From NCBI GenBank assembly GCA_905171695.1, contig LR991653.1, positions 1,550,625 to 1,614,624 of the forward strand: a DNA stretch of 64,000 nucleotides, in the 5' to 3' direction. The DNA is from Candidatus Methanoperedenaceae archaeon GB37 (GTDB taxonomy: Archaea > Halobacteriota > Methanosarcinia > Methanosarcinales > EX4572-44). The notes beneath the pieces were generated by a model, which did not search any database, was not told where the DNA came from, and saw nothing but the letters and a program-made list of their open reading frames with translations. Of this stretch, positions 1-64,000 are shown piece by piece. A program made the position numbers and the translations under genes. Positions within the stretch are counted from its first letter, which is position 1. Each line of letters begins with the position of its first letter.

Positions 1-357
1 TTCTTCTTTTGCAGAATCAAACCGTCCATCAGCCTGCATACTCGCAGAAGCATCTAGAACTATCACAGTATGCCCACCACCAACCTCCTCATCCCCCAAG
101 ACAAAAGGTTCTCCAACCGCAAGCGCAAGCAACAACAAGACCAGCAACTGAATCAAAAACAGAGGATCCTTAACAAAACGCCTGATAGTTGAAAATCTCT
201 TCTTCTCATCCCTAAAATCAAACAAAAACATTATGGAAGAAATCCTGAGCAGAAGAGGCTTGGGCCGCAAGAGATAAAGTATCACCAATGGAACAAGACT
301 GAAGAGCGCCAAAAGCCCCATAGTATTCGCAAAACCAAGCGGAAATCCAGCAACCAT
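1..357 (-). CDS. BatA/vWA domain membrane protein (5' part; runs off the window)
   Basis: Manual translation from ATG at 357: MVAGFPLGFANTMGLLALFSLVPLVILYLLRPKP...LLLLALAVGEP...VIVLDASASMQ. This is a BatA N-terminal double TM plus a vWA MIDAS DxSxS; it follows a DUF58 gene. Confidence 0.8.
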   Translation of the reverse strand, partial: MVAGFPLGFANTMGLLALFSLVPLVILYLLRPKPLLLRISSIMFLFDFRDEKKRFSTIRRFVKDPLFLIQLLVLLLLALAVGEPFVLGDEEVGGGHTVIVLDASASMQADGRFDSAKEE

Positions 358-370
358 AAAACCCACTACC

Positions 371-1222
371 TCACACTCTCATAATCTCAAAAAACGAGTC
401 AAAAATAGGCTTATCAGTAGGAAACATATGATAACTCGCACCAATTTCATCACAAACACCCCGAATCCTATTATTATGAGACTCAAGCCGTGCCCTGTAC
501 TCTCTTGCAAAGCGCGGACTCACATCAACCTCAACACTACCACCACTCTCAAGATCAACAAACCTCACATCACCACGAACCCCAAAACCAAGCTCGAACG
601 GATCCAAGACCTGCAACACCAAGAGCTCATTACGCGCAAACCGATAGATACCAGAGAGAAGACTCTCAGAATCGAAGAGAAAATCAGAGATCAAGACAAC
701 AAGAGACCTCGAACGAATAAAACCCTGATACTGCGCCATACACCTATCAAAGGAAGTGACACCCGAAGGCTTCACACCCTCAAGCATCCGAATAACACTC
801 GAAAGATGATGCATCCCACGCCTCGGACGAGCCACATCAACATCCTCTGAAAAACACGAAACCGAAAACCGCTCATTCTGCCTCCCAACAAGATACGCAA
901 CACCAAGAGCAAGCCGTGCAGCATAATCAAACTTAGGCGGAGACCCAAAACCCATACTACCACTAACATCCAGCAAAACATGAAGGGTGAGACTCTTCTC
1001 CTCCTCAAACTGCTTCACAAAGAGACGCTCAGTACGAGCATACACCCTCCAATCAATACTCCTGAAATCATCACCCGGCACATACTCCCTGTGACCCACA
1101 GCAACCAACCCACGCCCCAAGAGAAGAGACTTCCGAGACCCAGCATACGCAGTAGAGACACGCTTGCGCACCATGAGCTCAAAACGATCCAACTCACTGA
1201 AAAAATCAGGATCGACCAACAT
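371..1222 (-). CDS. DUF58 / vWA-like protein (MoxR-associated)
   Basis: HREYVPGDDFRSIDWRVYAR, LLDVSGSM and LISDF motifs typical of DUF58. Confidence 0.9.
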   Translation of the reverse strand: MLVDPDFFSELDRFELMVRKRVSTAYAGSRKSLLLGRGLVAVGHREYVPGDDFRSIDWRVYARTERLFVKQFEEEKSLTLHVLLDVSGSMGFGSPPKFDYAARLALGVAYLVGRQNERFSVSCFSEDVDVARPRRGMHHLSSVIRMLEGVKPSGVTSFDRCMAQYQGFIRSRSLVVLISDFLFDSESLLSGIYRFARNELLVLQVLDPFELGFGVRGDVRFVDLESGGSVEVDVSPRFAREYRARLESHNNRIRGVCDEIGASYHMFPTDKPIFDSFFEIMRV

Positions 1223-1487
1223 GATAACACCACCATTACTATTCCTACACCACTATTATTCTTTTTTCTCACCTGCCGCATTTCATTAAGGTGGTAGAAA
1301 GCATCATGCTCCATCCTTTTAAGACCATCTTCTGAAGAGCCGTTTAAATCGACATTTTTAAAAGTCTTGGATTTCGGACAGAAACTGAAACACGCTCCAC
1401 TTCGCTCACCACTTCATAACATGCACCACAACAGCAACAGACAGGAAGACTCCACCCGGCACTCCCAATTACCGATTACCTGTACAA

Positions 1488-1531
1488 TAAAAGGAGGGAG
1501 GGCTTGAGCGCAGAAGACCCCCTCTCCTTTA
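1488..1531. repeat. Imperfect inverted repeat (hairpin) downstream of the DUF2240 gene
   Basis: taaaaggagggagggctt ... aagaccccctctccttta. Confidence 0.45.
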
Positions 1532-1551
1532 CTCACCCCACCTCTCAGGTT

Positions 1552-2064
1552 TCAGATTCTCTTCTCTGGGGGTCTTCTTTCTCCATTGGTGGGTTGTGGT
1601 TTTGTTAGTTCTTGGTAGGCTTTTTCGATCAGGCTTTCGAGTTTGGCTCCGTGTTCCATTCCTATTATCAGTGCACTCACGTTTATTTCTACCAGTTTAA
1701 AGAGTTTTTCTTGGTTTTTATTGATTGCAGCGATGAGTTCACGTCTCCCTATACCGGTTTGAACCATTATTTGATCGAGTATTCTTTCAAAAAGGGTTTG
1801 TTTCCCTATTTTTAGTACTTTGGCACTTGGTTTGAAGTCGATCGGTGGATTTATCCTTGCAGGGTTGAAGCATGCTATGATCGATTCGTCATCCTCTCTC
1901 TTAAGCAGTTCGTTCTCGATGCCGATCTGCATGAGGGTCTTTGCTTCCTGAGGGCTGAACCATTTCAGGTCGAGTGTGAGTGTGAAGATGAACTCTTTTA
2001 TTCTGAGCTTCTCTCTGCCTTTCGCCTTGAATGGTTGTGCTACTGCGTATAATAGTTCGCTCAT
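1552..2064 (-). CDS. DUF2240 family protein
   Basis: AVAQPFK...EFIFTLTLDLKWFSPQEAK...P.DFKP pattern of euryarchaeal DUF2240. Confidence 0.8.
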   Translation of the reverse strand: MSELLYAVAQPFKAKGREKLRIKEFIFTLTLDLKWFSPQEAKTLMQIGIENELLKREDDESIIACFNPARINPPIDFKPSAKVLKIGKQTLFERILDQIMVQTGIGRRELIAAINKNQEKLFKLVEINVSALIIGMEHGAKLESLIEKAYQELTKPQPTNGERRPPEKRI

Positions 2065-7920: not shown

Positions 7921-8157
7921 GTGGATGAATTCAGTCTGTTGGATCATGAGATGGTTCCTTGTCATGAGATACTGGACGAAGAAGAGGTTAAATCTCTTCT
8001 GGAGAGATACGGTATTGAAAAGGAACAGCTTCCAAAGATCAAAGTCAAAGATCCTGTAATAAAAGAGATCAAAGCGCAGGTGGGAGATGTGATCAAAATA
8101 ACCAGGAAGAGTGCCACAGCAGGAGAAGCAAACATATACAGATTGGTTATCGGATAA
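7921..8157 (+). CDS. rpoH: RNA polymerase subunit H (Rpo5)
   Basis: HEMVPCHEIL...QLPKI...DP...GDVIKITRKS.TAG...YRLV. Confidence 0.97.
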   Translation: MDEFSLLDHEMVPCHEILDEEEVKSLLERYGIEKEQLPKIKVKDPVIKEIKAQVGDVIKITRKSATAGEANIYRLVIG

Positions 8158-8181
8158 AATAGCTCGAGAGGGGTTGTTGCA

Positions 8182-9756
8182 TTGTTAGATAGAAGAGTTC
8201 TGTCAAAGGCTTATTTCACGCATGATAAGATGGTTCGACACCAGATCGATTCGTTCAACGAATTCCTTGATCATGGACTCCAGAAGGTCGTTGATGAACA
8301 ACGTATTATAGAGACCAATATCGAGGATGTTTATATAGAGCTCGGAGAGATCAAAGTTGGAAATCCGATCGTCAGGGAGGCTGATGGAGCAACAGATAGG
8401 CTCTATCCCACGGATGCACGTCTGCGAAACATCACCTATGCAGCACCGATCTATCTTGAGATGATCATCGTTAAGGATGGTGAGGAGAGTGAGCCGAGGG
8501 ATGCAAGGATAGGAATGCTTCCGATAATGCTCCACTCAAAGGCATGTAATCTGTGTGGCATGTCCGAGAAGGATATGATCAGTCTTGGTGAGGATCCCCA
8601 TGACCCAGGAGGTTATTTCATAATAAACGGAACAGAACGTGTGATAACCACGCTTGAAGATCTTGCACCGAACAAGATAATGGTGGAGTTTGAGACACGC
8701 TACGGTGAGCAGATCGAGGTTGCAAAGGTCTTCTCGCACCGAAGAGGTTATCGTGCCCTTACAGTCGTTGAACGGAACAAGAACTCCATCCTCGAGGTAT
8801 CGTTCCCCTCCATCTCAGGGCGAATCAACTTTGTTACCATAGTACGGGCGCTCGGTGTGGAGACCGATGAAGACATCGTGGGAATGGTCTCGAGCGATCC
8901 TGAGATTGTGAAGTTCATGCTCGAGAACCTGGAAGAGGCTGAGGTATGGACACGTGACGAAGCTCTTGAGAAGTTGGGCAACAGGATTGCAGCTGGCCAG
9001 ATAAAGGAGTATCAGATAAAGAGGGCAAACTACGTGCTTGACAGGTACCTCCTTCCACACCTTGGAAACGAGGAGCGATATCGCCTGCTTAAGGCGCAGT
9101 TTCTTGGGCGGATGGCTGAGGCTTGCTTTGAACTTGCAATCGGGCGCAGGGGCGAGGTCGACAAGGATCATTATGCCAACAAGCGGTTGAAGCTTGCAGG
9201 GAATCTGATGGAGGATCTCTTCAGGGTCTCGTTCAACCGATTGACACGTGATATCAAGTACCAGCTTGAACGTGCCAATATGCGGAACAGGGATCTCAGC
9301 GTTGCGACCGTTGTGCGTTCAGACGTTCTCACCGAGCGGCTCAACCACTCGCTTGCCACTGGAAACTGGGTGGGTGGTCGCACTGGTGTCTCGCAGCTCC
9401 TTGACCGCACGAACTTCATAGCAACGCTCTCACACCTGCGCAGGGTTATTTCACCGCTCTCTCGTTCACAGCCACATTTCGAGGCACGTGATCTTCATCC
9501 AACGCAGTGGGGGAGGATATGTCCGTCAGAGACCCCTGAGGGGCCAAACTGTGGGCTTGTTAAGAACTTTGCCCAGATGGTTGAGATCTCAACAGGTATC
9601 GATGATGAGACCGAGGTTAAGGACATGCTCTTTGAGAGGCTTGGCGTGACGCCGCTTGCACCATTCCTGGTGGGTGACCGGGAGGTTCCTGTCTCGTATG
9701 CAACCGAGCTTGAAGCACAGGACGATGAACTGGTTTATGAGGTTGAAGAGGTATGA
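8182..9756 (+). CDS. rpoB2: RNA polymerase subunit B'' (Rpo2N)
   Basis: [33 protein letters not shown]. Confidence 0.97.
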
Positions 9757-11570: not shown

Positions 11571-11602
11571 AAATATATGGAATGTAGGGGGTTTTTAGAG
11601 TT

Positions 11603-15393: not shown

Positions 15394-15676
15394 TACAGAT
15401 AAAATACTAAGAACTGTAATAAAAGAGGGCAAGGTGGTGATCGGTGCAAAAGAGACGATCCAGAGCGTGAAGGATGGAAAGGCAAAACTCGTGATCGTAT
15501 CATCAAACTGCCCCTCAAGCGTGAGAGAAGAGATCGGGGTGGATAACTTCATCGAATACGGCGCGGACAACATAGAACTTGGGACAGCGTGTGGAAAACC
15601 GTTCGCGATATCAGCACTTGCGATACTCGAAGCCGATGAGACCGATATCCATGCACTCAGGGGTCTTCAATCTTGA
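15386..15676 (+). CDS. rpl30e: 50S ribosomal protein L30e
   Basis: [10 protein letters not shown]...[10 protein letters not shown]; conserved position after rpoA''. Confidence 0.95.
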
Positions 15677-16104: not shown

Positions 16105-16106
16105 TA

Positions 16107-17437: not shown

Positions 17438-17444
17438 CGACCCT

Positions 17445-47874: not shown

Positions 47875-48339
47875 AACACAGAGCAGAGCGCCAGAAAACC
47901 TTCAACCTCGGTCAGATCTTTCCAAGACGCACAAGAAAACTCATACGCGAAGAAGAACCAAGAAGATCACATCATCCAAACAACATCATATTATATTATC
48001 TATCTCCACTAAAATAAACCTTTCGTGCCAGAGAAGAAGTACCAAAAGAGTTGAAAAAGAGCTCGAAAAACCACCTGAAGAAGGTGCAGACGAAGAAATG
48101 AACCACCCGCCTCGACGTGAGGTGTAGCGTCGTACTCCACTCCACAATCTTCCACCCTTCATTTCTTCATCTCTCTTTCAAAAGTCGAAGTGCTTTGTGT
48201 TAATTGTCTGGCAAGCCAGATACGATCTGACACAAAGGAGGAACTTGCATAAAGAATTAGCTCAGAAAATTTTAAAATTTTTTGAAATTTTAGTATCAGA
48301 CAAAATATTTTTAACTAGCAAGTGCGATTTACCTGTGTG

Positions 48340-54461: not shown

Positions 54462-54511
54462 CAAGACCGAGTCGATATCCGAATCGATATGGATCTGGGT
54501 GGATCTGGGTC

Positions 54512-55612
54512 TCAGGCACCTTTCAGTATCTTGAGCGGTAGTGTTGCTGCTGTGAAGAGGAGTATACCGTTTGCTATGATTATGGACTCTTCGCTTGTTA
54601 TGGATAGTGCTATTCCGCTGAGGATTGGTAGTGCTGCAAGCCCGGTGTATGTGCAGGTGTTGAAGATGCCCATCGTGGTTCCACGTTCTGTGGTGAGGTT
54701 TGCAACTCCGCTCACAAGTCCCAGCAGCCCGAGTCCTGTGCCTGCGCCGATCAATGCAAATCCTATCGGGTGAAGTATGGTTATGAGTGCTCCGATCCCT
54801 GCCATCAGTATACCTCTTCTCGCGACTCTCTCGTGTTCTATCTTCAGGTGTCCTCCGATTATCGAGGTTATCATTGCACCTATGTAGAGAGTTGATAGGT
54901 AGATTCCGAGTTCGTTCTTTCCGATCTCTTCTGCTGCGTACTCTGGATAGATTGAGATGATCGCACCTGTAGCTCCAAAGAGTATAAAGGCGGTGACCCA
55001 CACACTTGGAAGTCCTGGTCTTGTGAGGAGTTCGATCGTTCTCCTCACTTCTCCTCGTGGCCTCTTCTCTGCGCTGTCTCTCTTCTCTCGTTCTTCCGGG
55101 AGCTTCCATGTGAGCAGCAGGGGTATTATGGAGATGACCGTGAATACTACGATCCCGTTCTTTATGCTCGTCTCTGCAGAGATGCCTGCCACAAAGACGC
55201 CTCCTCCAAGCCCGAGGTTCAGGAGGAAGTTCAGTTCTCCTATGTACTGCTCCTTCTTTTCAAACTCTGCGAGGATTGCGAAGGCAGCCGGGAAGAACGC
55301 GGCCGCTCCAAATCCTTCTGTGAACCGTGCGAGAAGTATCATCCAGAGGTTATTCGATAGTGTGAGGATGATGCCTGCTGTGAGCGTGAGGACTGCAGCT
55401 GTGCGGATGAGCGTGTTGTTACCGCAGCGGTCTGCAAGGATCCCTGACGGGAGCATGGCGATGAGTGCACCTGTGAAGTAGGCTGAGAAGATCAGACTTG
55501 CTGCAATGCTCTCACCCCTTGAGAGTTCCGGGAGTATCGGGATTGCCGCGTTTGAGAGCGCCATTATGGCGAAGACGAGTGTGTAAAGAGAGAGTCTCTG
55601 GAGCAAAACCAC
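54512..55612 (-). CDS. MFS transporter
   Basis: About 12 hydrophobic segments; GILADRCG motif A; ARFTEGFG. Confidence 0.85.
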   Translation of the reverse strand: MVLLQRLSLYTLVFAIMALSNAAIPILPELSRGESIAASLIFSAYFTGALIAMLPSGILADRCGNNTLIRTAAVLTLTAGIILTLSNNLWMILLARFTEGFGAAAFFPAAFAILAEFEKKEQYIGELNFLLNLGLGGGVFVAGISAETSIKNGIVVFTVISIIPLLLTWKLPEEREKRDSAEKRPRGEVRRTIELLTRPGLPSVWVTAFILFGATGAIISIYPEYAAEEIGKNELGIYLSTLYIGAMITSIIGGHLKIEHERVARRGILMAGIGALITILHPIGFALIGAGTGLGLLGLVSGVANLTTERGTTMGIFNTCTYTGLAALPILSGIALSITSEESIIIANGILLFTAATLPLKILKGA

Positions 55613-55615
55613 TAC

Positions 55616-56404
55616 TCACTCTATGTATCTCTTAAGTTTATCTTTCTCGACTCTCGCTGTTGCATCAAGAGAGAGCGGCGTTACTGAGATGTGCTCGGAG
55701 TTGAAGACCGCATTGATATCGGTTCCAGCTTCATCATCCACGATCAAATCCCCGTTTATCCAGTAGTATGGTCGTCCCCTCGGATCATGGCGCTCCTCAA
55801 CACCCGTTCGGAATATCTTGCGTGAGAGCCGTGTAATCTCGATCGGAGTTTCCATCGTCGCATGACGCGGCAGGTTGATATTCAGGAGATCCACACCATC
55901 TGGAAGCCCATACGCTAGCACACGTTTCGCTATCCTCCTCAGTATCTTTATCCCCTCATCAAAGTCATAGTGGTAGCTTCGCAGATCATCGAACTTCTCC
56001 CCTTCATCCAGAACCTGAATCGAGATCGCGATCGCAGGCACACCATAGCTTGCAGCCTCAAGAGCCGCTCCGATCGTGCCAGAGGTCGTGAGCGCGTCAG
56101 TACTGATATTCTCGCCAACATTGAATCCCGAGACTACGAGGTCTGGCATCGTCTTCATTATAGAGAATATTCCGATTATCACAGCATCGGTTGGAGTGCC
56201 ACCGACAGCATACGCTTCAAAGCCATCCATCACCGTGTGTGATACCCGCAAGGGCTCGAATATCGATATTGACCTGCCAACACCACTCATCTGCTTGGCA
56301 GGTGCAACAACCGTGAGATCTCCTAACCCAGAGACTGCCTCAGACGCAGCCCTGAGCCCGACAGCGTACACACCATCATCATTGGTAACGAGAATCCTGG
56401 GCAT
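55616..56404 (-). CDS. surE: 5'/3'-nucleotidase SurE
   Basis: ILVTNDDG, SGVG, GTPTD, SGFNVGEN, SGTIGAA. Confidence 0.95.
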   Translation of the reverse strand: MPRILVTNDDGVYAVGLRAASEAVSGLGDLTVVAPAKQMSGVGRSISIFEPLRVSHTVMDGFEAYAVGGTPTDAVIIGIFSIMKTMPDLVVSGFNVGENISTDALTTSGTIGAALEAASYGVPAIAISIQVLDEGEKFDDLRSYHYDFDEGIKILRRIAKRVLAYGLPDGVDLLNINLPRHATMETPIEITRLSRKIFRTGVEERHDPRGRPYYWINGDLIVDDEAGTDINAVFNSEHISVTPLSLDATARVEKDKLKRYIE

Positions 56405-56506
56405 CGTCACAAGGAGAGTAGTCCTCCAATGGATAAAAGCTTGCCCATCTTCTCTCACCCTCTCTATGGAAAGGCTTAACAGTCTCTCGGTTCATCATCT
56501 CTCTTT

Positions 56507-57289
56507 ATGTGCGGTGTTGTTGGGATTATGCGTCCATCGCGTTATGCTCGTGAGTCGCTTCTCTTTGCAGAGTCTATCGGGCTTGATGCACTCTTGGTTC
56601 CGATGATAGAGGTAGAGGAGTATCTGGACGAGGGTTTTGAGGGTTTTCTTGGGCGGGTCTTCAGGGGGGACTCGGATTATGTGATCTTCACCAGTGTGAA
56701 TGGTGTTGAGTTCACCTTGAAGAGAGTAGGTGATGGGATGGAGTTTGTCAGGGCTTTGAATGATCACTCTATGGTTGCAGCGATTGGTCCACGCACGGCA
56801 GAGGCACTTGAGAGGGTAGGGGTTCGCGTCGCTCTGCTCCCGAAGGTCTACAGTTCGAGTGGGCTGCTTGATCTCTTTGAGAGGAGGGTTTCTGGTGGGT
56901 GTGTGGAGATTCTTCGGAGCACGCACGGTGCGCCCATGCTTGTGGACGAGCTTCTCGCGCGTGGTGCAGAGGTTCATGAGACCTGTGTCTACACGCTCAC
57001 ACGTCCGGTAGGTGAGGAGCAGTACGGTCTTCTCAAGAAGGTGCTTGAGGGTGGTGTGGACGGGCTTGCATTCACAAGCACCATGATGGTCCACAACTTC
57101 ATGAAGACCGCTCTTGAGATCGGGATCCTTGATGGGGTTGTGGAACGGATGGGTGAGATATCGGTTGGTGCGATCGGTACTCCAACGGCGAGGACACTTG
57201 AGGGCTATGGTGTGAAGGGGATAATAGTTCCTGAGAGGTCTCTCTTCAAGGATCTTCTGATGGCACTTAAAGAGAGCATCTCTCGATGA
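56507..57289 (+). CDS. hemD: Uroporphyrinogen-III synthase
   Basis: IFTSVNGV, AIGPRTA..L, FTS, AIG.PTA..L. Confidence 0.9.
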   Translation: MCGVVGIMRPSRYARESLLFAESIGLDALLVPMIEVEEYLDEGFEGFLGRVFRGDSDYVIFTSVNGVEFTLKRVGDGMEFVRALNDHSMVAAIGPRTAEALERVGVRVALLPKVYSSSGLLDLFERRVSGGCVEILRSTHGAPMLVDELLARGAEVHETCVYTLTRPVGEEQYGLLKKVLEGGVDGLAFTSTMMVHNFMKTALEIGILDGVVERMGEISVGAIGTPTARTLEGYGVKGIIVPERSLFKDLLMALKESISR

Positions 57290-57302
57290 AGAAGGAGAGT
57301 TG

Positions 57303-59210
57303 TCATAGCTCTATCACTTCTCCGCTTCTCTTGTATGTGGTTATCCCTTCTGGCAGTCTCTTTTTGAGCTTTCTTGATTTCAGGGTTTGGATGATCGAGT
57401 CTGCCTGTGGGGTGTTGATGAACTTCTTTGTTGTGAGGAGGTCGTACTCTTCATCCGCTACTTTGATGAATCGGAGGTTGTTCTTGATCGCTGCTGGTCT
57501 TATCCCGATTCCTGCATCTGCCCTACCGAGTTTCACCGCTGATGCAACGGCGCTGTGGGTCTTTGCCTGGGTGTGGTAGCCTTTTATCTCTCTTCTTATC
57601 TCTTCTGGTTCTCTTCCGTCTTCGAGTGCTATCTTCTTTATCAGGAGGTCGAGGAGTAGGCGGGTGCCTGAGCCGTTGTTTCGGTTCATTATGGTTCTTC
57701 CAATGAGGTCTCTTACGCCTCTAATTCCTTCATCCTTTGTGATTATTCCCTGTTCGCGCAGGTATCCTTTGATCAATACTGCGTCTTTTATTCGGTATCG
57801 TCTGATCTCTCCTTCGTTGTAGTTTCCGTCGTGGTCGAGGAGGTGCGTGCCTGCAATGTCGGCGTGATTGTTTCTGATGGCTATGATGCCGCCTGTGGAT
57901 CCTGTGTTTATGATGCGCATGGTGTAGGGTATCAGGTCCTCAACGACGTCGAGTCCTGGGCAGTGGCTGCCGATGAAGAGAATGTCTGGTGTTTTGATCT
58001 GCGAGAAGAGTTGTACTTCCACGCTCGTTCCAGCCTCGATAATCTCGGTCGTGGATGGTATGTGGATGAAACCGTCTGCGTGGGCGAGGCTTGTGATCGC
58101 ACCTGATCCTTTGTCTGCCAGATAAGCGTTCTCTCGTGCGATTATCACTGGGAGGAGTTCTTCTCTCCCGCTTGTTTGAATCGTCGTTGCGAGTCGAGCT
58201 CTTGTCGTATTCTGGGCTCTGGTCTCTGCGAGGCTTCTCTGGATTGTCTCTGCGATGAAGTGGTTGAAGATTGTGAGGGCTGATGTTGGATATCCTGGAA
58301 GCCCGATTATCGGTGTTTCGTTGATGATTCCGAGCATTGCGGGTTTCCCTGGTCTTATGTTTATCCCGTGGAAGATGAGTTCTCCTTCATCTGCTATTAT
58401 CTGGTAGATGATGTCACCGCTTCCTGCCGAGGTGCTTCCTGATGTGAGCACGAGATCGCACTCATCTGCCGCCTCTCTGATGGCTTCTCTCATAATCTCG
58501 TGGTTGTCAGGTATGATCGGGTAGACCCGTGGTGTTGCGCCGCACTCCAAGAGGGCTGCTCTGATGGTGTAGGTGTTGGTGTCATATATATGTGCCTCTG
58601 GGAGTGTTTCTCCTGGTGGTGTGAGCTCGTCTCCTGTTGAGATCAGACCCGCGACCAGACTCTTTACCATGACCTCTCTCTTTCCGATCGCTGCAAGCAC
58701 ACCGATCTCGCGTGGCGTAAGCCGTGTACCGGCTCGCAATACTCGCTCTCCCACCATCATGTCTGTTCCTGCATGCATCGTGTTCTCGTTGACTGCAACG
58801 GGTCTTTTGATCGCTACAAACCCGTCCTCGATAGCCTCCTCTGTATCCTCGACCATCACAACAGCGTCTGCGCCTCTCGGCATTGGAGCCCCTGTTCCAA
58901 CCTCGATTGCCTCTCCCTTCCTGATCTCTCTCTTGGATACTCTGCCGGGGTGTATGGCATCGATCACACGGAGTTTCACAGGGATGTCTTCGCGTGCTCG
59001 GTAGGTCTCTTCTGCCTTGAGAGCGTATCCGTCCACGCTTGCACGGTCGAATGGCGGGACGTCTATCATGGTTGTGATATCCTCTGCAAGGACTCTTCCA
59101 CTGGCTTCTTCAAGTGGGACTCTCGTGGTTCTCGTCTTGAGCTGGATTTTTGATAGTATCTCTCTTGCCTCTCTCGCACTTATGAGTCCTCTGAACTCTT
59201 TTCTCATCAC
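57303..59210 (-). CDS. moeA: Molybdopterin molybdotransferase MoeA with a C-terminal PBP domain
   Basis: PPFDRASVDGYA, STGDEL, SGSTSAG, LPGYP; GSH, NRN.GSGTR, H.AVA..V..G.AD.G.G. Confidence 0.92.
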   Translation of the reverse strand: MMRKEFRGLISAREAREILSKIQLKTRTTRVPLEEASGRVLAEDITTMIDVPPFDRASVDGYALKAEETYRAREDIPVKLRVIDAIHPGRVSKREIRKGEAIEVGTGAPMPRGADAVVMVEDTEEAIEDGFVAIKRPVAVNENTMHAGTDMMVGERVLRAGTRLTPREIGVLAAIGKREVMVKSLVAGLISTGDELTPPGETLPEAHIYDTNTYTIRAALLECGATPRVYPIIPDNHEIMREAIREAADECDLVLTSGSTSAGSGDIIYQIIADEGELIFHGINIRPGKPAMLGIINETPIIGLPGYPTSALTIFNHFIAETIQRSLAETRAQNTTRARLATTIQTSGREELLPVIIARENAYLADKGSGAITSLAHADGFIHIPSTTEIIEAGTSVEVQLFSQIKTPDILFIGSHCPGLDVVEDLIPYTMRIINTGSTGGIIAIRNNHADIAGTHLLDHDGNYNEGEIRRYRIKDAVLIKGYLREQGIITKDEGIRGVRDLIGRTIMNRNNGSGTRLLLDLLIKKIALEDGREPEEIRREIKGYHTQAKTHSAVASAVKLGRADAGIGIRPAAIKNNLRFIKVADEEYDLLTTKKFINTPQADSIIQTLKSRKLKKRLPEGITTYKRSGEVIEL

Positions 59211-59278
59211 TCGATCCTCTCAACGGTCGATGGTTTATCCTTTTAGGAAGAGTTCTTCTGGTTAAAAAGCTTCTCTTT

Positions 59279-59734
59279 TTATCGTTGTTTGTAGGGTGAG
59301 GTCAGTCTGGTGAGTGTTGGTTCAAGTGTTGTTCTGATTCTATGGATGAATGTTGGTTTTCGTGCGCTCTGCGGTCTATCCACTGCTGTGAGGATGGGTT
59401 TTAGGCTTACTTTGTGTGTCCTTCTGGTATTCTCTTCTCGATCTTTTTGTGTTGTTATCTTCCCTACTTTTACTTTTTTCCCACTCTGTTTGATGGTTTT
59501 TTTACCAATGCCTCTTGTTATGTCGTGTTGTTTTCTGTATGCTCCTTCGCTTTTGCCTTTTTCATAACATTCTTTGATGATCTTGAGTGCTATTCCGAGT
59601 TTCTCTCCCTCTGTTTGTATCCTTCTATATTCTCGATGTACCCATCCAACCTCTGAATGGCTGAAGTACCCTACCTCCTGACCGAGTTTGTACACCTTTT
59701 CGAGTAGTTTCTTCTTCCCATCTCTGGATGACAT
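59279..59734 (-). CDS. Basic hypothetical protein downstream of a KaiC-like ATPase
   Basis: 151-aa Lys-rich ORF, co-oriented. Confidence 0.65.
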   Translation of the reverse strand: MSSRDGKKKLLEKVYKLGQEVGYFSHSEVGWVHREYRRIQTEGEKLGIALKIIKECYEKGKSEGAYRKQHDITRGIGKKTIKQSGKKVKVGKITTQKDREENTRRTHKVSLKPILTAVDRPQSARKPTFIHRIRTTLEPTLTRLTSPYKQR

Positions 59735-59760
59735 GGCACATTTATAATATTTTTATAATA

Positions 59761-60525
59761 TTACATCTTGTTCAGTACACTCAAGCCTGCGTCGCCGAAC
59801 TCGATTCGTCGCATGTCGCAGTCATGTTTGGTGCCACGCATCTTTATCACCTGGATTGCACGCTTCATCGTGTTCGACTCTTCATCAAGGAAGTTGTGCA
59901 GGAATATTACACCGTTTGAGACGAACTGTTCCACTGTGTAGGAGTGTGGGTTTGTCATCTCTGAGAGGATGATGGTTGTGCATCCCAGGTTTTTGATGTT
60001 TCGTATGAAGTGGGTTATCGATTTCTCTTCTGCTGCGGGGTGTTCTGCTGTGAAGCGGATGGATGAGAGAGAGTCGATGACGAGCCGTTTTGCCTTGTAC
60101 TTCGTCACGTACTTGTGGATCTCTTTGAAGACCGATGCTGGTGTCGGCGGCTCTGGCTCAGAGCTTAACTCTATTTGCGCCTGATAATCTGTTGTGATTA
60201 TATTCTGCCCACTCTCGAGGTAGTTGTATGCCATTGTTGGGCCAAGATCGACGAACTGCAGCTTTTCGAGCTTCATAAGCCCGAAGATGTTGAAGGAGTA
60301 GTTTGACATGTCGTCCATGATCGTCTCTGCAGGCTCGCTCAGTGTGATGTATAGCCCTGGTTCGCCCTTTATGCCACCGTGTGCCAGGAACTGAACCCCG
60401 AAGGTGGTCTTGCCAGATCCTGGCGGTCCTGATACCAGATAGACGCGTCCAGGGAGAAAACCCCCTTGGATCAATCCATCGAAGCCGTGAATCCCGGTTG
60501 TCACTCTCTTCCTCTGTTCCACCAT
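59761..60525 (-). CDS. KaiC/RAD55-like ATPase
   Basis: TTGIHGFD..IQGG, GPPGSGKT, LVIDS, IKMRGT.HD. Confidence 0.92.
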   Translation of the reverse strand: MVEQRKRVTTGIHGFDGLIQGGFLPGRVYLVSGPPGSGKTTFGVQFLAHGGIKGEPGLYITLSEPAETIMDDMSNYSFNIFGLMKLEKLQFVDLGPTMAYNYLESGQNIITTDYQAQIELSSEPEPPTPASVFKEIHKYVTKYKAKRLVIDSLSSIRFTAEHPAAEEKSITHFIRNIKNLGCTTIILSEMTNPHSYTVEQFVSNGVIFLHNFLDEESNTMKRAIQVIKMRGTKHDCDMRRIEFGDAGLSVLNKM

Positions 60526-60562
60526 ACCAAATCCATCATTACTATTATCACCACATAGATAT

Positions 60563-61477
60563 TTAAACGTTCCTATCAATCTCACAGATGATCCTTCTCC
60601 CAAGCTCCACACTCACTTCAAGAGACGTCATCAGCGTATCAGCCACAACCACCGGGAGATCGAACTCGTCAGGAGAGACTCCATCCCGCAGATCGACCAC
60701 GAAGAGATCGAGGATATCACCATAATACTCTGCAACACCACGACTCGATACACTATAGCCCTCAGAAGAGAGGAGCTTTCCTGCTGGACCGCTCACAGGC
60801 TCACAACCAACGATCGGACTCACAGCCAGAACAAACCTTTCACGAAGGAGAGACCTGACGCCCCGCAGACTCAGGATCGGACCGATGCTTGTTACAGGAT
60901 TGCTCGGGCCTATAACGACCGAATCGGAAGATCTGATCGCATCCATCACCTCTGCTGTCGGACTGGCATCATCCAGTCCCTTGATCAGAACACCATCGAC
61001 CCGTGGAGTCCCGTGCCTCACAACCCAGAACTCCTGAAAGTGGATGAGACCCGAGTCGGTCGCAATCATGGTGGCGAGAGGGTCGTTACTCATCGGAAGG
61101 ACTCTTGCTCTCACACCCATCCGTGATGCAAGTATCTCTGTAGCCTCGGTCAGGCTCTTACCCTCACGGATCAGGTTGCTTCGCAGCACATGGGTGGCAC
61201 GGTCGATGTCACCGATCATCATCCTCTCATCACAACCGAGCCGCATAAGAGCATCGTGCGTATGATAAGTATCATTCTTAACACCCCACCACCGTTCATC
61301 ATCGATGATCCCGGAGAATAGGTAGAGCAGGGTGTCGATGTCAGGGCAGATTAGATTTCCTGAAACCCATGTATCCTCTGCAGTATTAACGATTACAGTA
61401 ATATCCTCATCAGGTATCAGCTTCCTTACGCCCTGAATGAGCTTCGGAGTCCCGGTACCGCCAGAAAGAAAGAGCAC
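60563..61477 (-). CDS. cofD: 2-phospho-L-lactate transferase (F420 synthesis)
   Basis: LSGGTGTPK, CPDIDT, GDIDRATH, HFQEFWV, GPSNPVTSIGPI. Confidence 0.95.
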   Translation of the reverse strand: MLFLSGGTGTPKLIQGVRKLIPDEDITVIVNTAEDTWVSGNLICPDIDTLLYLFSGIIDDERWWGVKNDTYHTHDALMRLGCDERMMIGDIDRATHVLRSNLIREGKSLTEATEILASRMGVRARVLPMSNDPLATMIATDSGLIHFQEFWVVRHGTPRVDGVLIKGLDDASPTAEVMDAIRSSDSVVIGPSNPVTSIGPILSLRGVRSLLRERFVLAVSPIVGCEPVSGPAGKLLSSEGYSVSSRGVAEYYGDILDLFVVDLRDGVSPDEFDLPVVVADTLMTSLEVSVELGRRIICEIDRNV

Positions 61478-61544
61478 ACTACCCCCTAACTAAAGTTATT
61501 GTGATATGTTGTGCGATTTAAGACTCGCAGGAAAGTTTAAAGAT

Positions 61545-61799
61545 CTATTCAAGGACCGCCCACTGAAGATGCGCAAACCTGTCCCTCTGATCCTCTTCAA
61601 CCTTCTTTGCTTCGTCCTTTATCTTGATATTCTTCTCTTCAAGAGCTTTTTTAAGCTCATCCATCCGCTCATCGTCCATATTCAGATGTATAACACTTCT
61701 ATCGTTTATAACCTTAACCCTGCCTTCATTGATTGTTATCTCTCGCACGCTTGAGATTGTGGTTGAGGCACGTTCACAGAACTGATTGTAATAACTCAA
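61545..61799 (-). CDS. Small hypothetical protein (start uncertain)
   Basis: Charged helical ORF co-oriented with pstA and cofD. Confidence 0.4.
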   Translation of the reverse strand: MSYYNQFCERASTTISSVREITINEGRVKVINDRSVIHLNMDDERMDELKKALEEKNIKIKDEAKKVEEDQRDRFAHLQWAVLE

Positions 61800-61948
61800 T
61801 TCCCGCCCTGATCCTCATCTCTACATCGGTTATGATCTGGTCAAAGACCGGGAGCGCTCTTTCTATCCAGAGCGGTGTAGTGATCACGACAAACCCTAAG
61901 ATAAAGACGATCATTGCGAGAATTGCATGCTTCGACCTCACTTCCTAG

Positions 61949-62821
61949 TCACCACTCCAATCTCCTCTGATATCTGTTGCGCAGGATGATAGCTGTTGCG
62001 TTCATCGTCAAGAGGAACGCCATGAGGACGATGATACCTGCTGCTGCAAGGCTCGCAAACTCTTCCTGCGGTCTTCCCACCCAGCTGAATATCTGGATCG
62101 GGAGGGCTGTGAACGGATCGAGAGGCGTCCGTGGTACGAACGCCACGAAGCTGAGAGCGCCGACCATTATCAGTGGCGCCGTCTCTCCAAGCGCACGCGA
62201 GAGCGCGAGAATGTTCCCTGTGAGAATCCATGGGCGTGCTGCCGGGAGTACCTGATGGCGAATCGTCTGCCAGCGGGTTGCACCAAGCGCATACGATGCC
62301 TCTCTGATCGATTTCGGAACTGCCCTCAACGCTTCCTGGCTTGAGATTATTATTATTGGAAGTATCAGGAGTGCCATTGTGAGAGCACCTGCCAAAAGGC
62401 TTCTGCCGAGAAGGAGAGTCCGAACAAAGAGCGTCAGACCGAGTATGCCGTAGACGATGCTCGGAACACCTGCCAGATTGGATATGTTGATCTCAATGAT
62501 CTTCGTAAGACGGTTTTTCGGAGCATACTCCTCGAGATATATCGCTGCGCCAACACCAATCGGCACCGCAAAAGCGGCTGTTAGAAGTATTAACCAGATC
62601 GAACCAAAGAGCGCTGATTTTATCCCGGCACGCTCTGGAAAGCGCGAGGGAAAACTTGTGAGGAAGTCCCAGCTCAGCCATGGAAGACCTCTCGTGAAGA
62701 CGTCCCAAAGCAGGAGAAAGAGGAGGAGAACACCCACCATCGTCGAGATGAAGCAGACGATCGTGAAGAGCCGATCCTTCAACCACCGCCCATCCTGCAG
62801 CTTCCACGACTCAACTCTCAA
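61949..62821 (-). CDS. pstA: Phosphate ABC permease PstA
   Basis: [37 protein letters not shown]. Confidence 0.95.
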
Positions 62822-63708
62822 TCATACACCTCCTGATAGCGCGACCGTATCCACTGACTGAAGATGTTCATCACAAGCGTCATGGTGAAGAGCACCATGC
62901 CTATCACAAAGATCGTCTTGTAAGCGACACTCCCGGCAGGCGTGTCACCAAGACTCACCTGAACGATGTAAGCCGTCATCGTCTGGATGCTCTCAAAGAA
63001 GTTCAGCGTCATAACAGGTGTTGCACCTGCGGCAAGCGTCACAGCCATCGTCTCCCCAATAGCCCTTGAGACTGCGAGGATGAAAGAGGCGAGTATGCCT
63101 GAGAGCGCAGACGGCACAACCACCTTCGTTGTCACCTCGTACTTGGTCGAACCGAGCGCGTAAGCACCCTCTCGAAGAGAACGCGGCACACTCCTGAGAG
63201 CGTCCTCGCTCAGGCTAGAAACCATCGGCAGGATCATTATCCCAACCACGATACACGCACTCGCCGCATTGAAGATATCAGTCTCAGGAAGAACTCTCCT
63301 GATGAGCGGTGTTACGAACGTCACAGCAAAGTACCCATAGACTATCGTTGGCACGCCTGCAAGAATCTCCAGAAGAGGCTTCAAGAGACTGCGTACACGC
63401 TCGTGAGCATACTCACTTAAATATACAGCACTTGAAATGCCGAGTGGGAGCGCAATGATACTTGAACCGATGGCTACAAGGAGCGTGCCATTGACGAGCG
63501 GAAGCACGCCAAACCGCGGCGGCGTGAACATGGGAGACCACCGTGTCCCAAAGAGAAACTCGAAGACACTCACATCCCTAAAGAACGAAAGAGTCTCAGA
63601 GAGAAGTATGAAGACGATACCGATCGTAACAAAGATGGAGAGGGCTGCATAGAGAAAGAGAATGTGCTCGATCAATCGCTCCTTCAGCTTACTATAGCCA
63701 TTCACCAT
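62818..63708 (-). CDS. pstC: Phosphate ABC permease PstC
   Basis: [30 protein letters not shown]. Confidence 0.95.
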
Positions 63709-63847
63709 TCGTGCACACAACCAGCCCAACAACTCTACCTCCCTGCACAAATACGTTTTCAAAAGCCACTCTCTCTGTGGGGGTAGGCTTATCTGGGGTG
63801 GGCGTCTTTTACTGGTTTAAAGAGATACTCTTTGAAGAGGGGTTCTT

Positions 63848-64000
63848 ATGCCGGTTGTCTCGCTTTATCTTGATGATCTGGAGAAGCTTCTTGGAGTCGA
63901 TCCAAGGCTTGTGGTTGAGCGTTTACCGATGATCGGTTCTGACGTGGAGCGGGTCTTGGACGATCGTGTGGATGTTGAGTTCTTCCCAAACAGGCCCGAC
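63848..64000 (+). CDS. pheT: Phenylalanyl-tRNA synthetase beta subunit (5' part)
   Basis: MPVVSL..DDLEKL...LPMIGSDVE......VEFFPNRPD. Confidence 0.88.
   Translation, partial: MPVVSLYLDDLEKLLGVDPRLVVERLPMIGSDVERVLDDRVDVEFFPNRPD

What the first reader, a model, noticed from the sequence alone, without database searches (positions are those of the whole stretch)
1..64000. Sawtooth G+T / A+C strand skew that resets at intergenic sites regardless of gene orientation
Seen: the + strand jumps abruptly from A/C-rich to G/T-rich at about 1550, 16105, 35850, 40940, 54470, 56470 and 63770, then drifts back to A/C-rich over several kb. Hand counts of G+T per 60-nt line: 541-600 = 11 versus 1561-1620 = 47 (both in minus-strand genes); within polB, 36601 = 37 versus 38881 = 20; across the all-minus block, 41401 = 46 versus 47581 = 21. 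Jumps occur at tandem, convergent and divergent junctions, so simple coding-strand bias does not explain it. Inference: a mutational asymmetry radiates from intergenic DNA, for example from many dispersed replication starts (analogous to skew N-domains) or a chromatin- or transcription-boundary process. The counted lines were chosen by eye, so they overstate the contrast.
Basis: partly seen in the sequence, partly recalled or inferred. Interest (0 to 1): 0.75.

Follow-up and report, generated by a model that had tools for sequence, protein, structure and literature searches.

The report
Sawtooth strand skew at gene-unit borders
In this archaeal genome the balance of G+T against A+C on a DNA strand jumps up at the borders between gene clusters and slides down over the next one to three kilobases, most strongly at silent codon positions, which points to an unusual, locally directed mutation process that is so far undescribed in microbes.

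Summary
All six hand counts reproduce exactly. The skew is strongest at fourfold-degenerate sites. Per-gene silent-site keto skew has sd 0.285 against 0.093 expected by chance. Along transcription units the coding strand runs from G/T-rich to A/C-rich: silent T falls 0.33 to 0.16 and A rises 0.21 to 0.38. The 5' end is more keto than the 3' end in 339 of 388 units.

Because a falling ramp is unchanged by reverse-complementing, the + strand shows one sawtooth whatever the gene orientation. Abrupt up-steps outnumber down-steps 103 to 17, and 78% lie in non-coding DNA against 17% of random points.

Codon positions 1 and 2 and all eight fourfold families share the trend, and it does not reset at cistron starts. 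This indicates mutation pressure, not codon selection.

The pattern is strong in a congener and in one other family. It is weak in the sister genus and absent elsewhere in the order. The three strong genomes have the most heat-adapted-looking proteomes among well-sampled genomes and lack MutS and UDG.

The mechanism is unresolved. I favour border-anchored outward transcription exposing one strand. Dispersed DNA-synthesis starts remain a live rival.

The parts
1223..1551 (.). Strongest upward step of the window. It lies in a 330-nt spacer between two minus-strand genes (tandem junction).
   Evidence: Step 0.50 (arms 400) and 0.54 (arms 750), genome percentiles 99.8 and 99.9. Left gene 371..1222(-) is DUF58 with third-position keto +0.77 on its coding strand. 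Right gene 1552..2064(-) is DUF2240 with -0.46. The A/C-rich + strand continues through the non-coding spacer up to the stop codon at 1552.
7921..16104 (+). RNA polymerase operon (split rpoB, split rpoA, KH/NusA-like). A shallow tooth.
   Evidence: Pfam hits. Per-gene fourfold keto on the coding strand is +0.19, +0.08, +0.03, -0.04, -0.25, -0.02, -0.29 from 5' to 3'.
16090..16110 (.).
   Evidence: Step 0.27 at 16090 (arms 400, percentile 96.5) and 0.18 with arms 750.
16107..18470 (-). Three-gene minus-strand unit (ketol-acid reductoisomerase, APS-kinase-like, inositol monophosphatase-like) forming one tooth.
   Evidence: Coding-strand fourfold keto is +0.36, +0.06, -0.09 from 5' to 3'.
18471..19217 (.).
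   Evidence: Step 0.27 at 18652 (arms 750).
35802..36573 (.).
   Evidence: Step 0.28 at 35895 (arms 400, percentile 97.1). The + strand fourfold keto goes from -0.20 to +0.52.
36574..40401 (+). polB plus an FrhB-like gene: a plus-strand tooth.
   Evidence: The + strand fourfold keto falls from +0.52 (36337-36840) to -0.36 (39972-40317). Pfam DNA_pol_B and FrhB_FdhB.
40914..40964 (.). Strong upward step at a convergent junction.
   Evidence: Step 0.45-0.46, percentiles 99.6-99.7. Sequence shown.
40965..47874 (-). Eight-gene minus-strand block (OapC, OapB, GTPase, GH15, V4R, two GH57, DUF2111): the clearest tooth.
   Evidence: Coding-strand fourfold keto from 5' (47874) to 3' (40965) is +0.46, +0.13, -0.03, -0.26, -0.41, -0.33, -0.72, -0.75. 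Fourfold T-versus-A skew reaches -0.90. Pfam hits.
47875..48497 (.).
   Evidence: Step 0.28 at 48127 (arms 750).
54462..54511 (.). Upward step at a convergent junction (NrpR-like + gene, MFS - gene).
   Evidence: Step 0.36 at 54470 (arms 400, percentile 98.9).
54512..56458 (-). Two-gene minus-strand tooth (SurE, then MFS transporter).
   Evidence: The + strand fourfold keto goes from +0.48 at 54548 to -0.36 at 55904-56195.
56459..56506 (.). Sharp upward step inside a 48-nt divergent spacer.
   Evidence: Step 0.46 at 56505 (arms 400, percentile 99.7). Sequence shown.
56507..63762 (.). One tooth that runs through a convergent junction without a break. It spans HemD (+, 56507..57289) and then seven minus-strand genes (57303..63762).
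   Evidence: The + strand fourfold keto is +0.40, +0.36, +0.48 in HemD. It continues at +0.52 and +0.80 in MoeA and falls to -0.60 at 63106-63349. Genome-wide, short units show the same continuity into a convergent neighbour (r=0.29-0.31, n=207).
63763..63847 (.). Upward step at a divergent junction.
   Evidence: Step 0.43 at 63775 (arms 400, percentile 99.6).

Best explanation
Shown: the sawtooth is a mutation-type strand asymmetry anchored at the borders of transcription units. On either side of a border, the strand that runs 5'->3' away from the border is enriched in G and T. The enrichment decays over about 0.8-1.3 kb. Seen in coding orientation, every unit therefore starts G/T-rich and ends A/C-rich.

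Inferred, my preferred mechanism: a polymerase-like machine leaves the borders in both directions and keeps that strand transiently single-stranded. Most likely this is RNA polymerase. It would include sense transcription from promoters, read-through past stop codons and terminators, and antisense transcription into the 3' ends of neighbours. The non-template strand would be exposed in transcription bubbles or R-loops.

Hydrolytic deamination (C->U, read as T; A->hypoxanthine, read as G) on the exposed strand then drives it towards G+T. The effect would become visible in this lineage for two reasons. The organisms appear to live warm and presumably divide rarely, and they lack UDG-family uracil glycosylase and MutS, so such lesions and mismatches are fixed more often.
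For: Mutation-type, not composition or codon choice:
- The effect is largest at fourfold sites, where T falls 0.327->0.164, A rises 0.215->0.380, G falls 0.265->0.195 and C rises 0.193->0.261 at constant GC.
- It is also present at twofold sites, where T/(T+C) falls 0.62->0.37 and G/(G+A) falls 0.65->0.46.
- It is present at codon position 1 (+0.059->-0.053) and position 2 (+0.032->-0.044).
- All 8 of 8 fourfold families shift the same way.
- The skew continues into non-coding spacers.

Unit-anchored:
- The 5' 450 nt are more keto than the 3' 450 nt in 339 of 388 units of at least 1.5 kb, with mean difference 0.41.
- The skew keeps falling across operon-internal junctions (step -0.10; L-R continuity r=0.63) but steps up at inter-unit junctions of all three types.
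- The change point lies nearer the upstream gene's stop.
- An edge-decay fit gives A5=0.37 with decay length 0.8 kb, and A3=0.23 with decay length 1.25 kb.

Independent directional sources rather than bidirectional ones:
- The two flanks of a border are uncorrelated (r=0.07, n=656).
- The 5' and 3' ends of the same unit are uncorrelated for units of at least 2.5 kb.

Strongly transcribed short genes mark borders: the step across tRNA genes is +0.16+-0.026 (36 of 43 positive), against +0.074 at 553 other spacers.

No replication-scale skew was seen.

Transitions dominate divergence between close strains. In run X4, 391 of 520 differences are transitions and only 24 of 520 are A<->T.

Context, not gene identity, sets the value. 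Ortholog skew correlates at r=0.75 with the congener (177 pairs) but r=0.04 with G010, which has the same phenomenon (93 pairs).

Lineage pattern:
- Strong in G000, G001 and G010 (within-gene first-minus-last-third differences +0.198, +0.244 and +0.280).
- Weak in the sister genus (+0.068 and +0.079).
- About zero or negative in 12 other genera of the order, 3 of them well sampled, and in all 20 genomes sampled elsewhere in the class.
- The three strong genomes have the three highest IVYWREL fractions of the 8 well-sampled genomes: 0.434, 0.424 and 0.4245, against 0.402-0.4105.
- Near-identical DNA is held by hydrothermal-vent and sediment metagenomes.
- UDG was not found in G000 or in 18 of the 21 genomes searched.
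- MutS was not found in families f1 (0 of 6), f6 (0 of 1) and f3 (0 of 4), but was found in f2, f4 and f5 (10 of 10).

The deamination chemistry and its strand logic are established knowledge, not a tool result.
Against: - The 3' effect is about as large as the 5' effect. Transcription can explain that only if antisense or read-through RNA is as mutagenic as sense RNA, and I have no transcript data.
- The mcr operon is presumably the most expressed operon (my assumption). It has no G/T-rich 5' part: coding silent skew is -0.33, -0.29, -0.55 and its 5' spacer is neutral.
- The step at tRNA genes does not depend on tRNA orientation (+0.177 against +0.143).
- A direct test on 74 copies of five repeat families (686 private keto-changing substitutions) was at best borderline. 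Gains versus losses were 124:119 in G/T-rich contexts and 80:113 in A/C-rich contexts (Fisher p=0.053). The per-copy correlation was 0.03.
- Temperature and repair loss are not sufficient. Genus g11 (MutS not found, IVYWREL 0.422 on only 12.5 k residues) shows no effect.
- 16S G+C barely separates the groups: 55.3-55.5% in G000/G001 and 57.8% in G010, but 56.6% in G008, which has no effect.
- One tooth crosses a convergent junction smoothly, and a rise occurs inside a 2046-codon ORF near 30.7-31.0 kb.
Confidence: 0.42

Rival explanations
1. DNA synthesis, not transcription, starts at unit borders and runs outward for about a kilobase. Candidates are dispersed replication starts (a kilobase-scale analogue of mammalian N-domains, for instance recombination- or R-loop-primed replication) or nick- or break-initiated repair and gene-conversion tracts between genome copies. 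Either the lagging-strand template is exposed and deaminated, or uncorrected G.T misincorporations enrich the newly made outward strand in G and T, because MutS is missing.
For: - The sign is that of the classical leading-strand bias: the + strand is G/T-rich to the right of the step.
- Once a constant coding offset of about -0.085 is removed, the effect is about equal at 5' and 3' gene ends. The offset-corrected flank means, with the left flank's sign reversed, are 0.106 (left) and 0.108 (right).
- Steps occur at tandem, convergent and divergent junctions and at tRNA genes of either orientation.
- One tooth crosses a convergent junction, and short units are continuous with convergent neighbours.
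- MutS is not found in exactly the families that contain the affected lineages.
- Origin-independent replication is reported for other archaea. I saw only the search listings and the start of the abstracts of PMC5663688 and PMC11005403.
- N-domain skew is ascribed to fork-polarity gradients. I saw only the listing of PMC3320577.
Against: - Flank strengths at one border are uncorrelated (r=0.07, n=656). A bidirectional start should couple them.
- No k-mer is enriched at the 150 strongest of 860 junctions after correcting for 793 tests. AT content and spacer length do not differ.
- There is one Orc1/Cdc6 gene and no skew landmark beside it.
- There is no replichore-scale skew, although forks from a normal origin should then leave one.
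- About a thousand starts, with tracts of only about 1 kb, would be needed.
- Simple 5'->3' break resection followed by deamination of the 3' tail predicts the opposite sign (my own derivation).
Confidence: 0.27
2. Selection rather than mutation. Codon choice or mRNA or DNA composition is selected to change along polycistronic messages, for example a slow-codon ramp, increasing accuracy towards 3' ends, or an unstructured A/C-rich 3' RNA.
For: - A/C-ending codons are the Watson-Crick partners of G34/U34 tRNAs (my own knowledge).
- The mcr operon, presumably highly expressed, is A/C-ending throughout.
- Private substitutions in repeat copies lean to A+C in element orientation (313 gains against 373 losses, p=0.024).
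- A mean coding offset of -0.054 to -0.085 exists.
Against: - There is no reset at cistron starts inside operons (step -0.10 at 448 junctions with gaps of 10 nt or less).
- Positions 1 and 2 and non-coding spacers share the trend.
- All eight fourfold families move together, and the main axis is T<->A, which are decoded by different tRNAs.
- Ortholog values are unrelated between the two affected lineages (r=0.04).
- A:T ratios of about 19:1 at silent sites would need very strong selection per site.
Confidence: 0.08
3. No local process is at work. The pattern would be a by-product of amino-acid composition, gene orientation, foreign DNA, assembly error, or scrambling of a genome that once had a strong replication skew.
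For: - Membrane and low-complexity proteins do shift positions 1 and 2.
- The window has a low-GC island of foreign-looking DNA at 19-28 kb.
Against: - The silent-site signal is the strongest.
- Gene orientation explains 3.5% of the variance.
- The shapes are ramps, not blocks, and up-steps outnumber down-steps 103:17.
- The same pattern is seen in an independently assembled congener, with ortholog r=0.75, and in G010.
- The island itself is nearly flat.
Confidence: 0.02

Closest known systems
Skew N-domains of mammalian genomes (upward skew jumps at replication initiation zones with linear decline between them). PMC3320577 and PMC2764438, seen only as search listings with the start of the abstract.
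   Same: A sawtooth of T-vs-A plus G-vs-C skew on one strand, with abrupt upward steps, gradual decline and sign change. The steps lie in open, non-coding DNA.
   Different: The scale is about 1000 times smaller (1-7 kb against about 1 Mb). The amplitude is far larger, with silent-site skew up to +-0.8. The steps coincide with transcription-unit borders. The two flanks of a border are uncorrelated. The organism is a prokaryote with one Orc1/Cdc6 gene.
Long-range bidirectional strand asymmetries that originate at human CpG islands (Polak and Arndt 2009, PMC2817419; abstract and outline read).
   Same: Complementary substitution asymmetries of opposite sign on the two sides of a promoter-associated landmark, resembling those around bacterial origins.
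   Different: In that work the asymmetries were measured from substitutions in intergenic DNA over up to 1 Mb and attributed to replication. Here they are inferred from composition, on a kilobase scale, and also occur at convergent gene ends that carry no promoter.
Transcription-associated strand asymmetry and R-loop-linked GC skew at the 5' and 3' ends of genes. PMC3787257, seen only as a listing with the start of the abstract. The E. coli non-transcribed-strand deamination literature is recalled, not read.
   Same: G and T excess on the non-template strand near promoters, a decay length of about 1 kb, and a second zone beyond gene ends.
   Different: The known cases keep one sign along a gene. 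Here the coding strand reverses to strongly A/C-rich at the 3' end (silent keto down to -0.75 in the window). The presumably most expressed operon lacks the 5' part.
Gradient of strand skew along vertebrate mitochondrial DNA, set by time spent single-stranded. Recalled; PMC9561281 seen only as a listing.
   Same: Very large silent-site skews dominated by C->T and A->G on the exposed strand, and a position-dependent gradient.
   Different: That is a single gradient per genome tied to one replication mode. Here there are hundreds of short gradients of alternating sign.
Replichore GC/keto skew of bacteria and the cumulative skews of archaea. PMC12999951, passages read; PMC3269012, listing only.
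   Same: The same compositional axis: G>C and T>A on one strand.
   Different: No replichore-scale signal is present here. The archaeal survey attributes local deviations to gene-strand bias and translational selection, and the word 'gradient' does not occur in its text. Here gene orientation explains 3.5% of the variance.

Membership tests
Replication-origin skew step (bacterial oriC type / N-domain border) | An upward step of G+T (G>C, T>A) skew on the + strand at the site, with the opposite sign on the two flanks. | tested here: met
   Genome-wide, 103 up-steps against 17 down-steps. The seven named steps lie at percentiles 96.5-99.8.
Replication-origin skew step (bacterial oriC type / N-domain border) | One bidirectional source, so the strengths of the left and right flanks co-vary. 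| tested here: not met
   The correlation between the left flank (sign reversed) and the right flank is r=0.07 at 656 borders. The operon-internal control gives -0.63.
Replication-origin skew step (bacterial oriC type / N-domain border) | Origin sequence features: repeated initiator-binding elements, an AT-rich unwinding element, an adjacent initiator gene. | tested here: not met
   No k-mer survives correction at the top 150 of 860 junctions, and AT content is equal (0.593 against 0.601). The single Cdc6_C hit lies about 84 kb from the window.
Replication-origin skew step (bacterial oriC type / N-domain border) | Replication demonstrably starts there (marker frequency, nascent strands). | not testable with these tools
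   Only assembled contigs of metagenomes were available.
Transcription-associated strand asymmetry | The non-template (coding) strand is enriched in G and T at neutral sites along the transcribed region. | tested here: inconclusive
   Met for the first kilobase or so (silent keto +0.19). The sign reverses towards 3' ends (-0.28 to -0.39).
Transcription-associated strand asymmetry | The boundaries coincide with transcription units, not with single cistrons. | tested here: met
   No reset at gaps of 10 nt or less (step -0.10, n=448). Up-steps occur at larger gaps and at strand switches. The 5' end exceeds the 3' end in 339 of 388 units.
Transcription-associated strand asymmetry | The strength scales with transcription. 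| tested here: inconclusive
   tRNA genes carry larger steps, but the mcr operon has no G/T-rich 5' part. No RNA data were available.
Translational codon-usage selection | The effect is confined to synonymous positions and to particular tRNA/codon families. | tested here: not met
   Positions 1 and 2 and spacers share the trend, and 8 of 8 fourfold families shift alike.
Translational codon-usage selection | It is a property of the gene (expression level), so it is conserved between orthologs and restarts per cistron. | tested here: not met
   r=0.04 between the two affected lineages (93 pairs). No restart at cistron starts.

The most novel reading that the evidence does not exclude
These warm-sediment archaea do not copy or maintain their chromosome mainly from one origin. 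Instead they use roughly a thousand short DNA-synthesis tracts that start at the open DNA between transcription units. These could be recombination-, nick- or R-loop-primed. Without mismatch repair, the tracts write a kilobase-scale N-domain-like sawtooth into the genome. The skew map would then be a fossil record of every initiation site in an uncultured organism.
Probability: 0.2. Interest if true: 0.92.

Novelty: new variant of a known kind. Interest (0 to 1): 0.78.

Why it matters
Silent-site composition here is governed less by genome-wide mutation bias or codon selection than by distance to the nearest unit border. Single genes reach 19:1 A:T at fourfold sites.

If the cause is transcription-linked single-strand damage, this would be the clearest natural case in which damage outside replication dominates sequence evolution in slow-growing, warm-living, uncultured archaea. 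It would also give a sequence-only read-out of unit borders, read-through and antisense activity.

If the cause is dispersed DNA synthesis, it bears on how archaea replicate without fixed origins.

There are practical consequences.
- Gene finders and codon-adaptation indices trained on average codon usage will miss or mis-score genes in such genomes. My first single-model pass missed a Pfam-supported gene at 371..1222.
- Skew-based origin prediction will fail.
- Composition-based binning and detection of foreign DNA may be misled.

The patchy distribution also offers a comparative handle on the cause: two separated lineages, a weak sister genus, and a link with missing MutS and a heat-type proteome.

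Tried and rejected
- Expression: no RNA holder listed for the stretch, so no transcript evidence of any kind.
- Polarised mutation spectrum from close strains: read laying listed only 40 of 1265 variable places and gave run totals only, so no spectrum by context could be built. The cap is one call.
- Shared motif at strong steps: none.
- Oligo-T terminators as blockers of the downstream run: for units with a T-run of at least 6 (n=42) the downstream flank is 0.022 against 0.104, p=0.10. An A-run control behaves similarly. Inconclusive and confounded by local composition.
- Repeat-copy natural experiment: borderline (Fisher p=0.053; per-copy r=0.03). Three of the eight seed families gave too few full-length copies.
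- Candidate gene losses that could explain lineage specificity:
  - RNase HII, topoisomerase IA, gyrase A, aCPSF1 and histone are present in G000 and relatives.
  - Endonuclease V is present.
  - A Y-family polymerase was not found in G000, G001, G002 or G010.
  - UDG was not found in most of the order.
  - NucS_C hits in G000 lie in ORFs of atypical length.
  - None of these separates affected from unaffected genomes. MutS does so only partly.
- 16S G+C as a thermometer: not discriminating. In the 16S tree one sequence (G002) was left in the wrong orientation and is meaningless there.
- Break resection with deamination of the 3' tail: rejected on sign (my own derivation).
- Thermal fraying of AT-rich spacers and supercoiling alone: rejected because they are strand-symmetric.
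- Literature: searches found no description of a unit-scale sign-changing skew gradient in a prokaryote. One search failed on syntax. This covers only the held open-access library.

Full report
WHAT WAS CHECKED. The window is bases 1,550,625-1,614,624 of a single-contig genome of 1,922,745 bases with 46.5% G+C. Pfam hits identify it as an archaeon of the methanogen/alkane-oxidiser type. They include split RNA polymerase B and A subunits, F420-related proteins, CofD, NrpR, OapB/OapC and methyl-coenzyme M reductase. I did not try to name it.

Keto skew in 500-nt windows ranges from -0.40 to +0.38 in the window. Genome-wide its sd is 0.122 against a binomial 0.045, and its autocorrelation vanishes by about 1.25 kb and then turns slightly negative. 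All seven named positions are upward steps. Five lie above the 98.9th genome percentile with 400-nt arms, and 16105 and 35850 lie at the 96.5th-97th. Two further steps, at 18652 and 48127, are of similar size.

The sawtooth shape is a genome-wide property.
- Abrupt up-steps outnumber down-steps 103 to 17 (p=3e-16) and 263 to 70 at a lower threshold.
- Up-steps sit in non-coding DNA 78% of the time, against 17% for random points.
- They sit within 100 nt of a gene boundary 71% of the time, against 26%.
- Of 152 up-steps, 79 are at tandem, 36 at convergent and 35 at divergent junctions, and 2 are intragenic.

IT IS NOT AMINO-ACID COMPOSITION. I built my own gene set. A second pass with skew-class-specific models gave 1733 genes and 83% coverage. 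In the window, 43 of 47 ORFs tested had Pfam support.
- Per-gene keto skew correlates 0.92 with its fourfold-site value and only 0.59 with codon position 2.
- Among 1518 genes with at least 40 fourfold sites, coding-strand silent keto skew has sd 0.285 against 0.093 binomial. It ranges from -1.00 to +0.80, and 265 genes exceed 0.4 in absolute value.
- Gene orientation explains 3.5% of the variance of + strand silent skew.

THE ANATOMY IS POLAR IN CODING ORIENTATION. Silent keto skew on the coding strand falls from 5' to 3'.
- Gene deciles run from +0.08 to -0.18.
- Units of 1.5-3 kb run from +0.19 to -0.39 when measured from the 5' end.
- The first 450 nt are more keto than the last 450 nt in 339 of 388 units of at least 1.5 kb, with mean difference 0.41.
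- The first third exceeds the last third in 536 of 700 genes of at least 900 nt.
- At fourfold sites T falls 0.327->0.164, A rises 0.215->0.380, G falls 0.265->0.195 and C rises 0.193->0.261, with GC unchanged.

A decreasing ramp is invariant under reverse-complementing. This is why the + strand shows the same sawtooth for genes on either strand.

The ramp continues through operon-internal junctions. The step is -0.10 at 448 junctions with gaps of 10 nt or less, and it is -0.08 at mid-gene pseudo-junctions. It steps up at larger gaps: convergent +0.26 to +0.37, divergent +0.07 to +0.29, tandem +0.14 to +0.19. In long spacers the change point lies nearer the upstream gene's stop codon (median relative position 0.35 for ++ pairs and 0.78 for -- pairs; n=25 and 21). 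A two-edge exponential fit gives a baseline of -0.085, a 5' term of +0.37 decaying over 0.8 kb, and a 3' term of -0.23 decaying over 1.25 kb. It fits slightly better than a straight line in relative position.

MUTATION-TYPE RATHER THAN CODON SELECTION.
- The same gradient appears at twofold sites: T/(T+C) 0.62->0.37 and G/(G+A) 0.65->0.46.
- It appears at codon position 1 (+0.059->-0.053) and position 2 (+0.032->-0.044).
- It appears in all eight fourfold families.
- It appears in non-coding spacers, for example 1381-1551.
- It does not restart at cistron starts.
- Between close strains, differences are mostly transitions. In run X4, 391 of 520 are transitions and 24 of 520 are A<->T. So the large T-versus-A skew must arise through the two transition pathways.

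WHAT SETS THE STRENGTH.
- Strength is not a property of the border. Left and right flank strengths are uncorrelated (r=0.07, n=656), while across operon-internal junctions the + strand skew is continuous (r=0.63).
- Strength is not a property of the unit. 5' and 3' ends are uncorrelated for units of at least 2.5 kb.
- Short units are continuous with a convergent neighbour (r=0.29-0.31, n=207). In the window this is seen in the tooth 56507-63762.
- tRNA genes carry larger steps: +0.16+-0.026, 36 of 43 positive, regardless of their orientation, against +0.074 at 553 other spacers.
- No sequence word marks strong borders.
- The mcr operon is A/C-ending throughout (-0.33, -0.29, -0.55) and lacks a G/T-rich start.
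- There is one Cdc6/Orc1 gene, with no landmark beside it, and no replichore-scale skew.

DISTRIBUTION. The statistic is first-third minus last-third silent keto in ORFs of at least 300 codons chosen by length alone.

| Genome | Relationship | Difference | Detail | Between-gene sd |
|---|---|---|---|---|
| G000 | the window's genome | +0.198+-0.011 | 76% of 697 ORFs positive | 0.256 |
| G001 | same genus | +0.244+-0.026 | | 0.30 |
| G002 | sister genus | +0.068 | | 0.11-0.12 |
| G003 | sister genus | +0.079 | | 0.11-0.12 |
| G009 | other family | +0.013 | | |
| G008 | other family | -0.097 | | |
| G006 | other family | -0.081 | | |
| G010 | other family (f6) | +0.280+-0.041 | 86% of 63 ORFs positive; up:down steps 14:3 | 0.293 |

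Nine further genera of the order, sampled at 14-60 kb each, gave differences of +0.025 or less. Among twenty genomes from elsewhere in the class, sampled at 13.5-20 kb each, none combined a high difference with a high spread.

On a 16S tree G010's family pairs with an unaffected family, and that pair is sister to the window's family. So the trait is either gained twice or lost repeatedly.

Per-gene skew is conserved within the genus (r=0.75, 177 ortholog pairs at a median 84% amino-acid identity) but unrelated between the two affected lineages (r=0.04, 93 pairs). It therefore follows local context, not gene identity.

CORRELATES.
- The three affected genomes have the three highest IVYWREL fractions among the eight well-sampled genomes: 0.434, 0.424 and 0.4245, against 0.402-0.4105, with bootstrap sd 0.002-0.006. 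The use of this index as a growth-temperature proxy is recalled from Zeldovich and colleagues, not read.
- Two small samples are exceptions: g11 at 0.422 and g34 at 0.433, neither with the effect.
- 16S G+C does not separate the groups.
- Near-identical DNA occurs in hydrothermal-vent and sediment metagenomes of 11 studies.
- UDG was not found in G000 or in 18 of the 21 genomes searched.
- MutS was not found in families f1, f3 and f6 (0 of 11, counting G000). It was found in all 10 genomes of f2, f4 and f5. So all affected genomes lack it, but so do unaffected ones.
- RNase HII, topoisomerase IA, gyrase, aCPSF1, histone and endonuclease V are present.

MECHANISM. What is shown is a border-anchored, kilobase-range, sign-changing, mutation-type asymmetry in which the strand running 5'->3' away from a border gains G and T. 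Established chemistry (my knowledge) says that the strand left single is driven towards G+T by C and A deamination. The machines that expose that particular strand are an outward-moving RNA polymerase (the non-template strand) or an outward-moving replisome (the lagging-strand template). Outward DNA synthesis with uncorrected G.T misincorporation gives the same sign. Break resection gives the opposite sign.

I favour transcription, including read-through and antisense, for four reasons.
- The borders are unit borders.
- Each flank behaves as an independent directional source.
- The step follows stop codons.
- There is no replication-scale signal.

I hold this at about 0.4. The 3' effect is as large as the 5' effect, the mcr operon does not fit, and a direct test on repeat copies was only borderline. 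Gains to losses were 124:119 in G/T-rich contexts and 80:113 in A/C-rich contexts (p=0.053), over 74 copies and 686 substitutions.

COMPARISON WITH THE LITERATURE. The nearest known things are listed here with what I saw of each.
- Mammalian N-domains: listings only.
- Bidirectional asymmetries at CpG islands, PMC2817419: abstract and outline.
- R-loop-linked skew at gene ends, PMC3787257: listing only.
- The mitochondrial single-strand gradient: recalled.

A 2026 survey of archaeal skews attributes local deviations to gene-strand bias and translational selection and does not mention gradients (passages only). My searches found no report of a unit-scale, sign-changing silent-site gradient in a prokaryote. 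They cover only the held open-access library.

VERDICT. The finding is real and statistically overwhelming. It is not explained by the ordinary causes and is phylogenetically patchy. Its mechanism is open. I rate it a new variant of a known kind (strand-compositional asymmetry) and of high interest.

Noticed in passing
window 19000-28000: A low-GC island (29-41% against about 50%). It holds a type I restriction-modification methylase (19218..21002) and specificity subunit (21829..22800), helix-turn-helix/transposase genes (24229..24714, 25807..27213), and little of the sawtooth. It looks like recently acquired DNA that has not yet taken on the local skew.
   Followed up: partly
window 47900-51240: An ORF-poor stretch with transposase-like fragments. 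In four metagenome runs, 48238-49571 has about 5-10 times the depth of its neighbours, which suggests a multi-copy element. Contigs of several runs skip about 915-918 bases at 49613-50532, which suggests a strain-variable insertion or deletion.
   Followed up: partly
window 40965-41752; genome 1466612-1467853: Genes for origin-associated proteins OapC and OapB sit at the strongest convergent step. The genome's only Cdc6/Orc1 hit lies about 84 kb away, so they are not beside the initiator gene.
   Followed up: partly
window 29661-35801 (-): A 2046-codon VWA/Big_1 surface-protein gene breaks the rule. Its coding strand is A/C-rich from about 0.5 to 2.4 kb from the start and G/T-rich in the last 1.5 kb. 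This gives an upward + strand step inside the ORF near 30.7-31.0 kb. An internal border, such as an internal promoter or a fused gene, is possible.
   Followed up: no
window 40481-40730 (+): A small cysteine-rich, zinc-ribbon-like ORF read by eye in the spacer. My gene caller missed it and I did not search it.
   Followed up: no
whole genome (G000): About 139 kb (7%) lies in repeat families with at least 3 other copies. They include a family of about 700 nt with up to 35 copies and one of about 1 kb with about 21 copies.
   Followed up: partly
G010 (loci L136-L140, L161-L165): A genome of another family in the same order shows the same sawtooth at equal or greater strength. It also has the highest 16S G+C of the 13 compared (57.8%).
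   Followed up: partly
window 371-1222 (-): A DUF58 gene with third-position keto skew +0.77 was rejected by a single-model codon scorer in favour of a shadow ORF on the other strand (428..850 +). Standard gene finders may mis-call such genes.
   Followed up: yes
genome 421303-421635, 288735-289004, 593329-593478: Three NucS_C-domain matches in G000 lie in ORFs of atypical length (363 aa, 456 aa, and a 52-aa fragment with a stop). None were found in the four same-family genomes searched.
   Followed up: no
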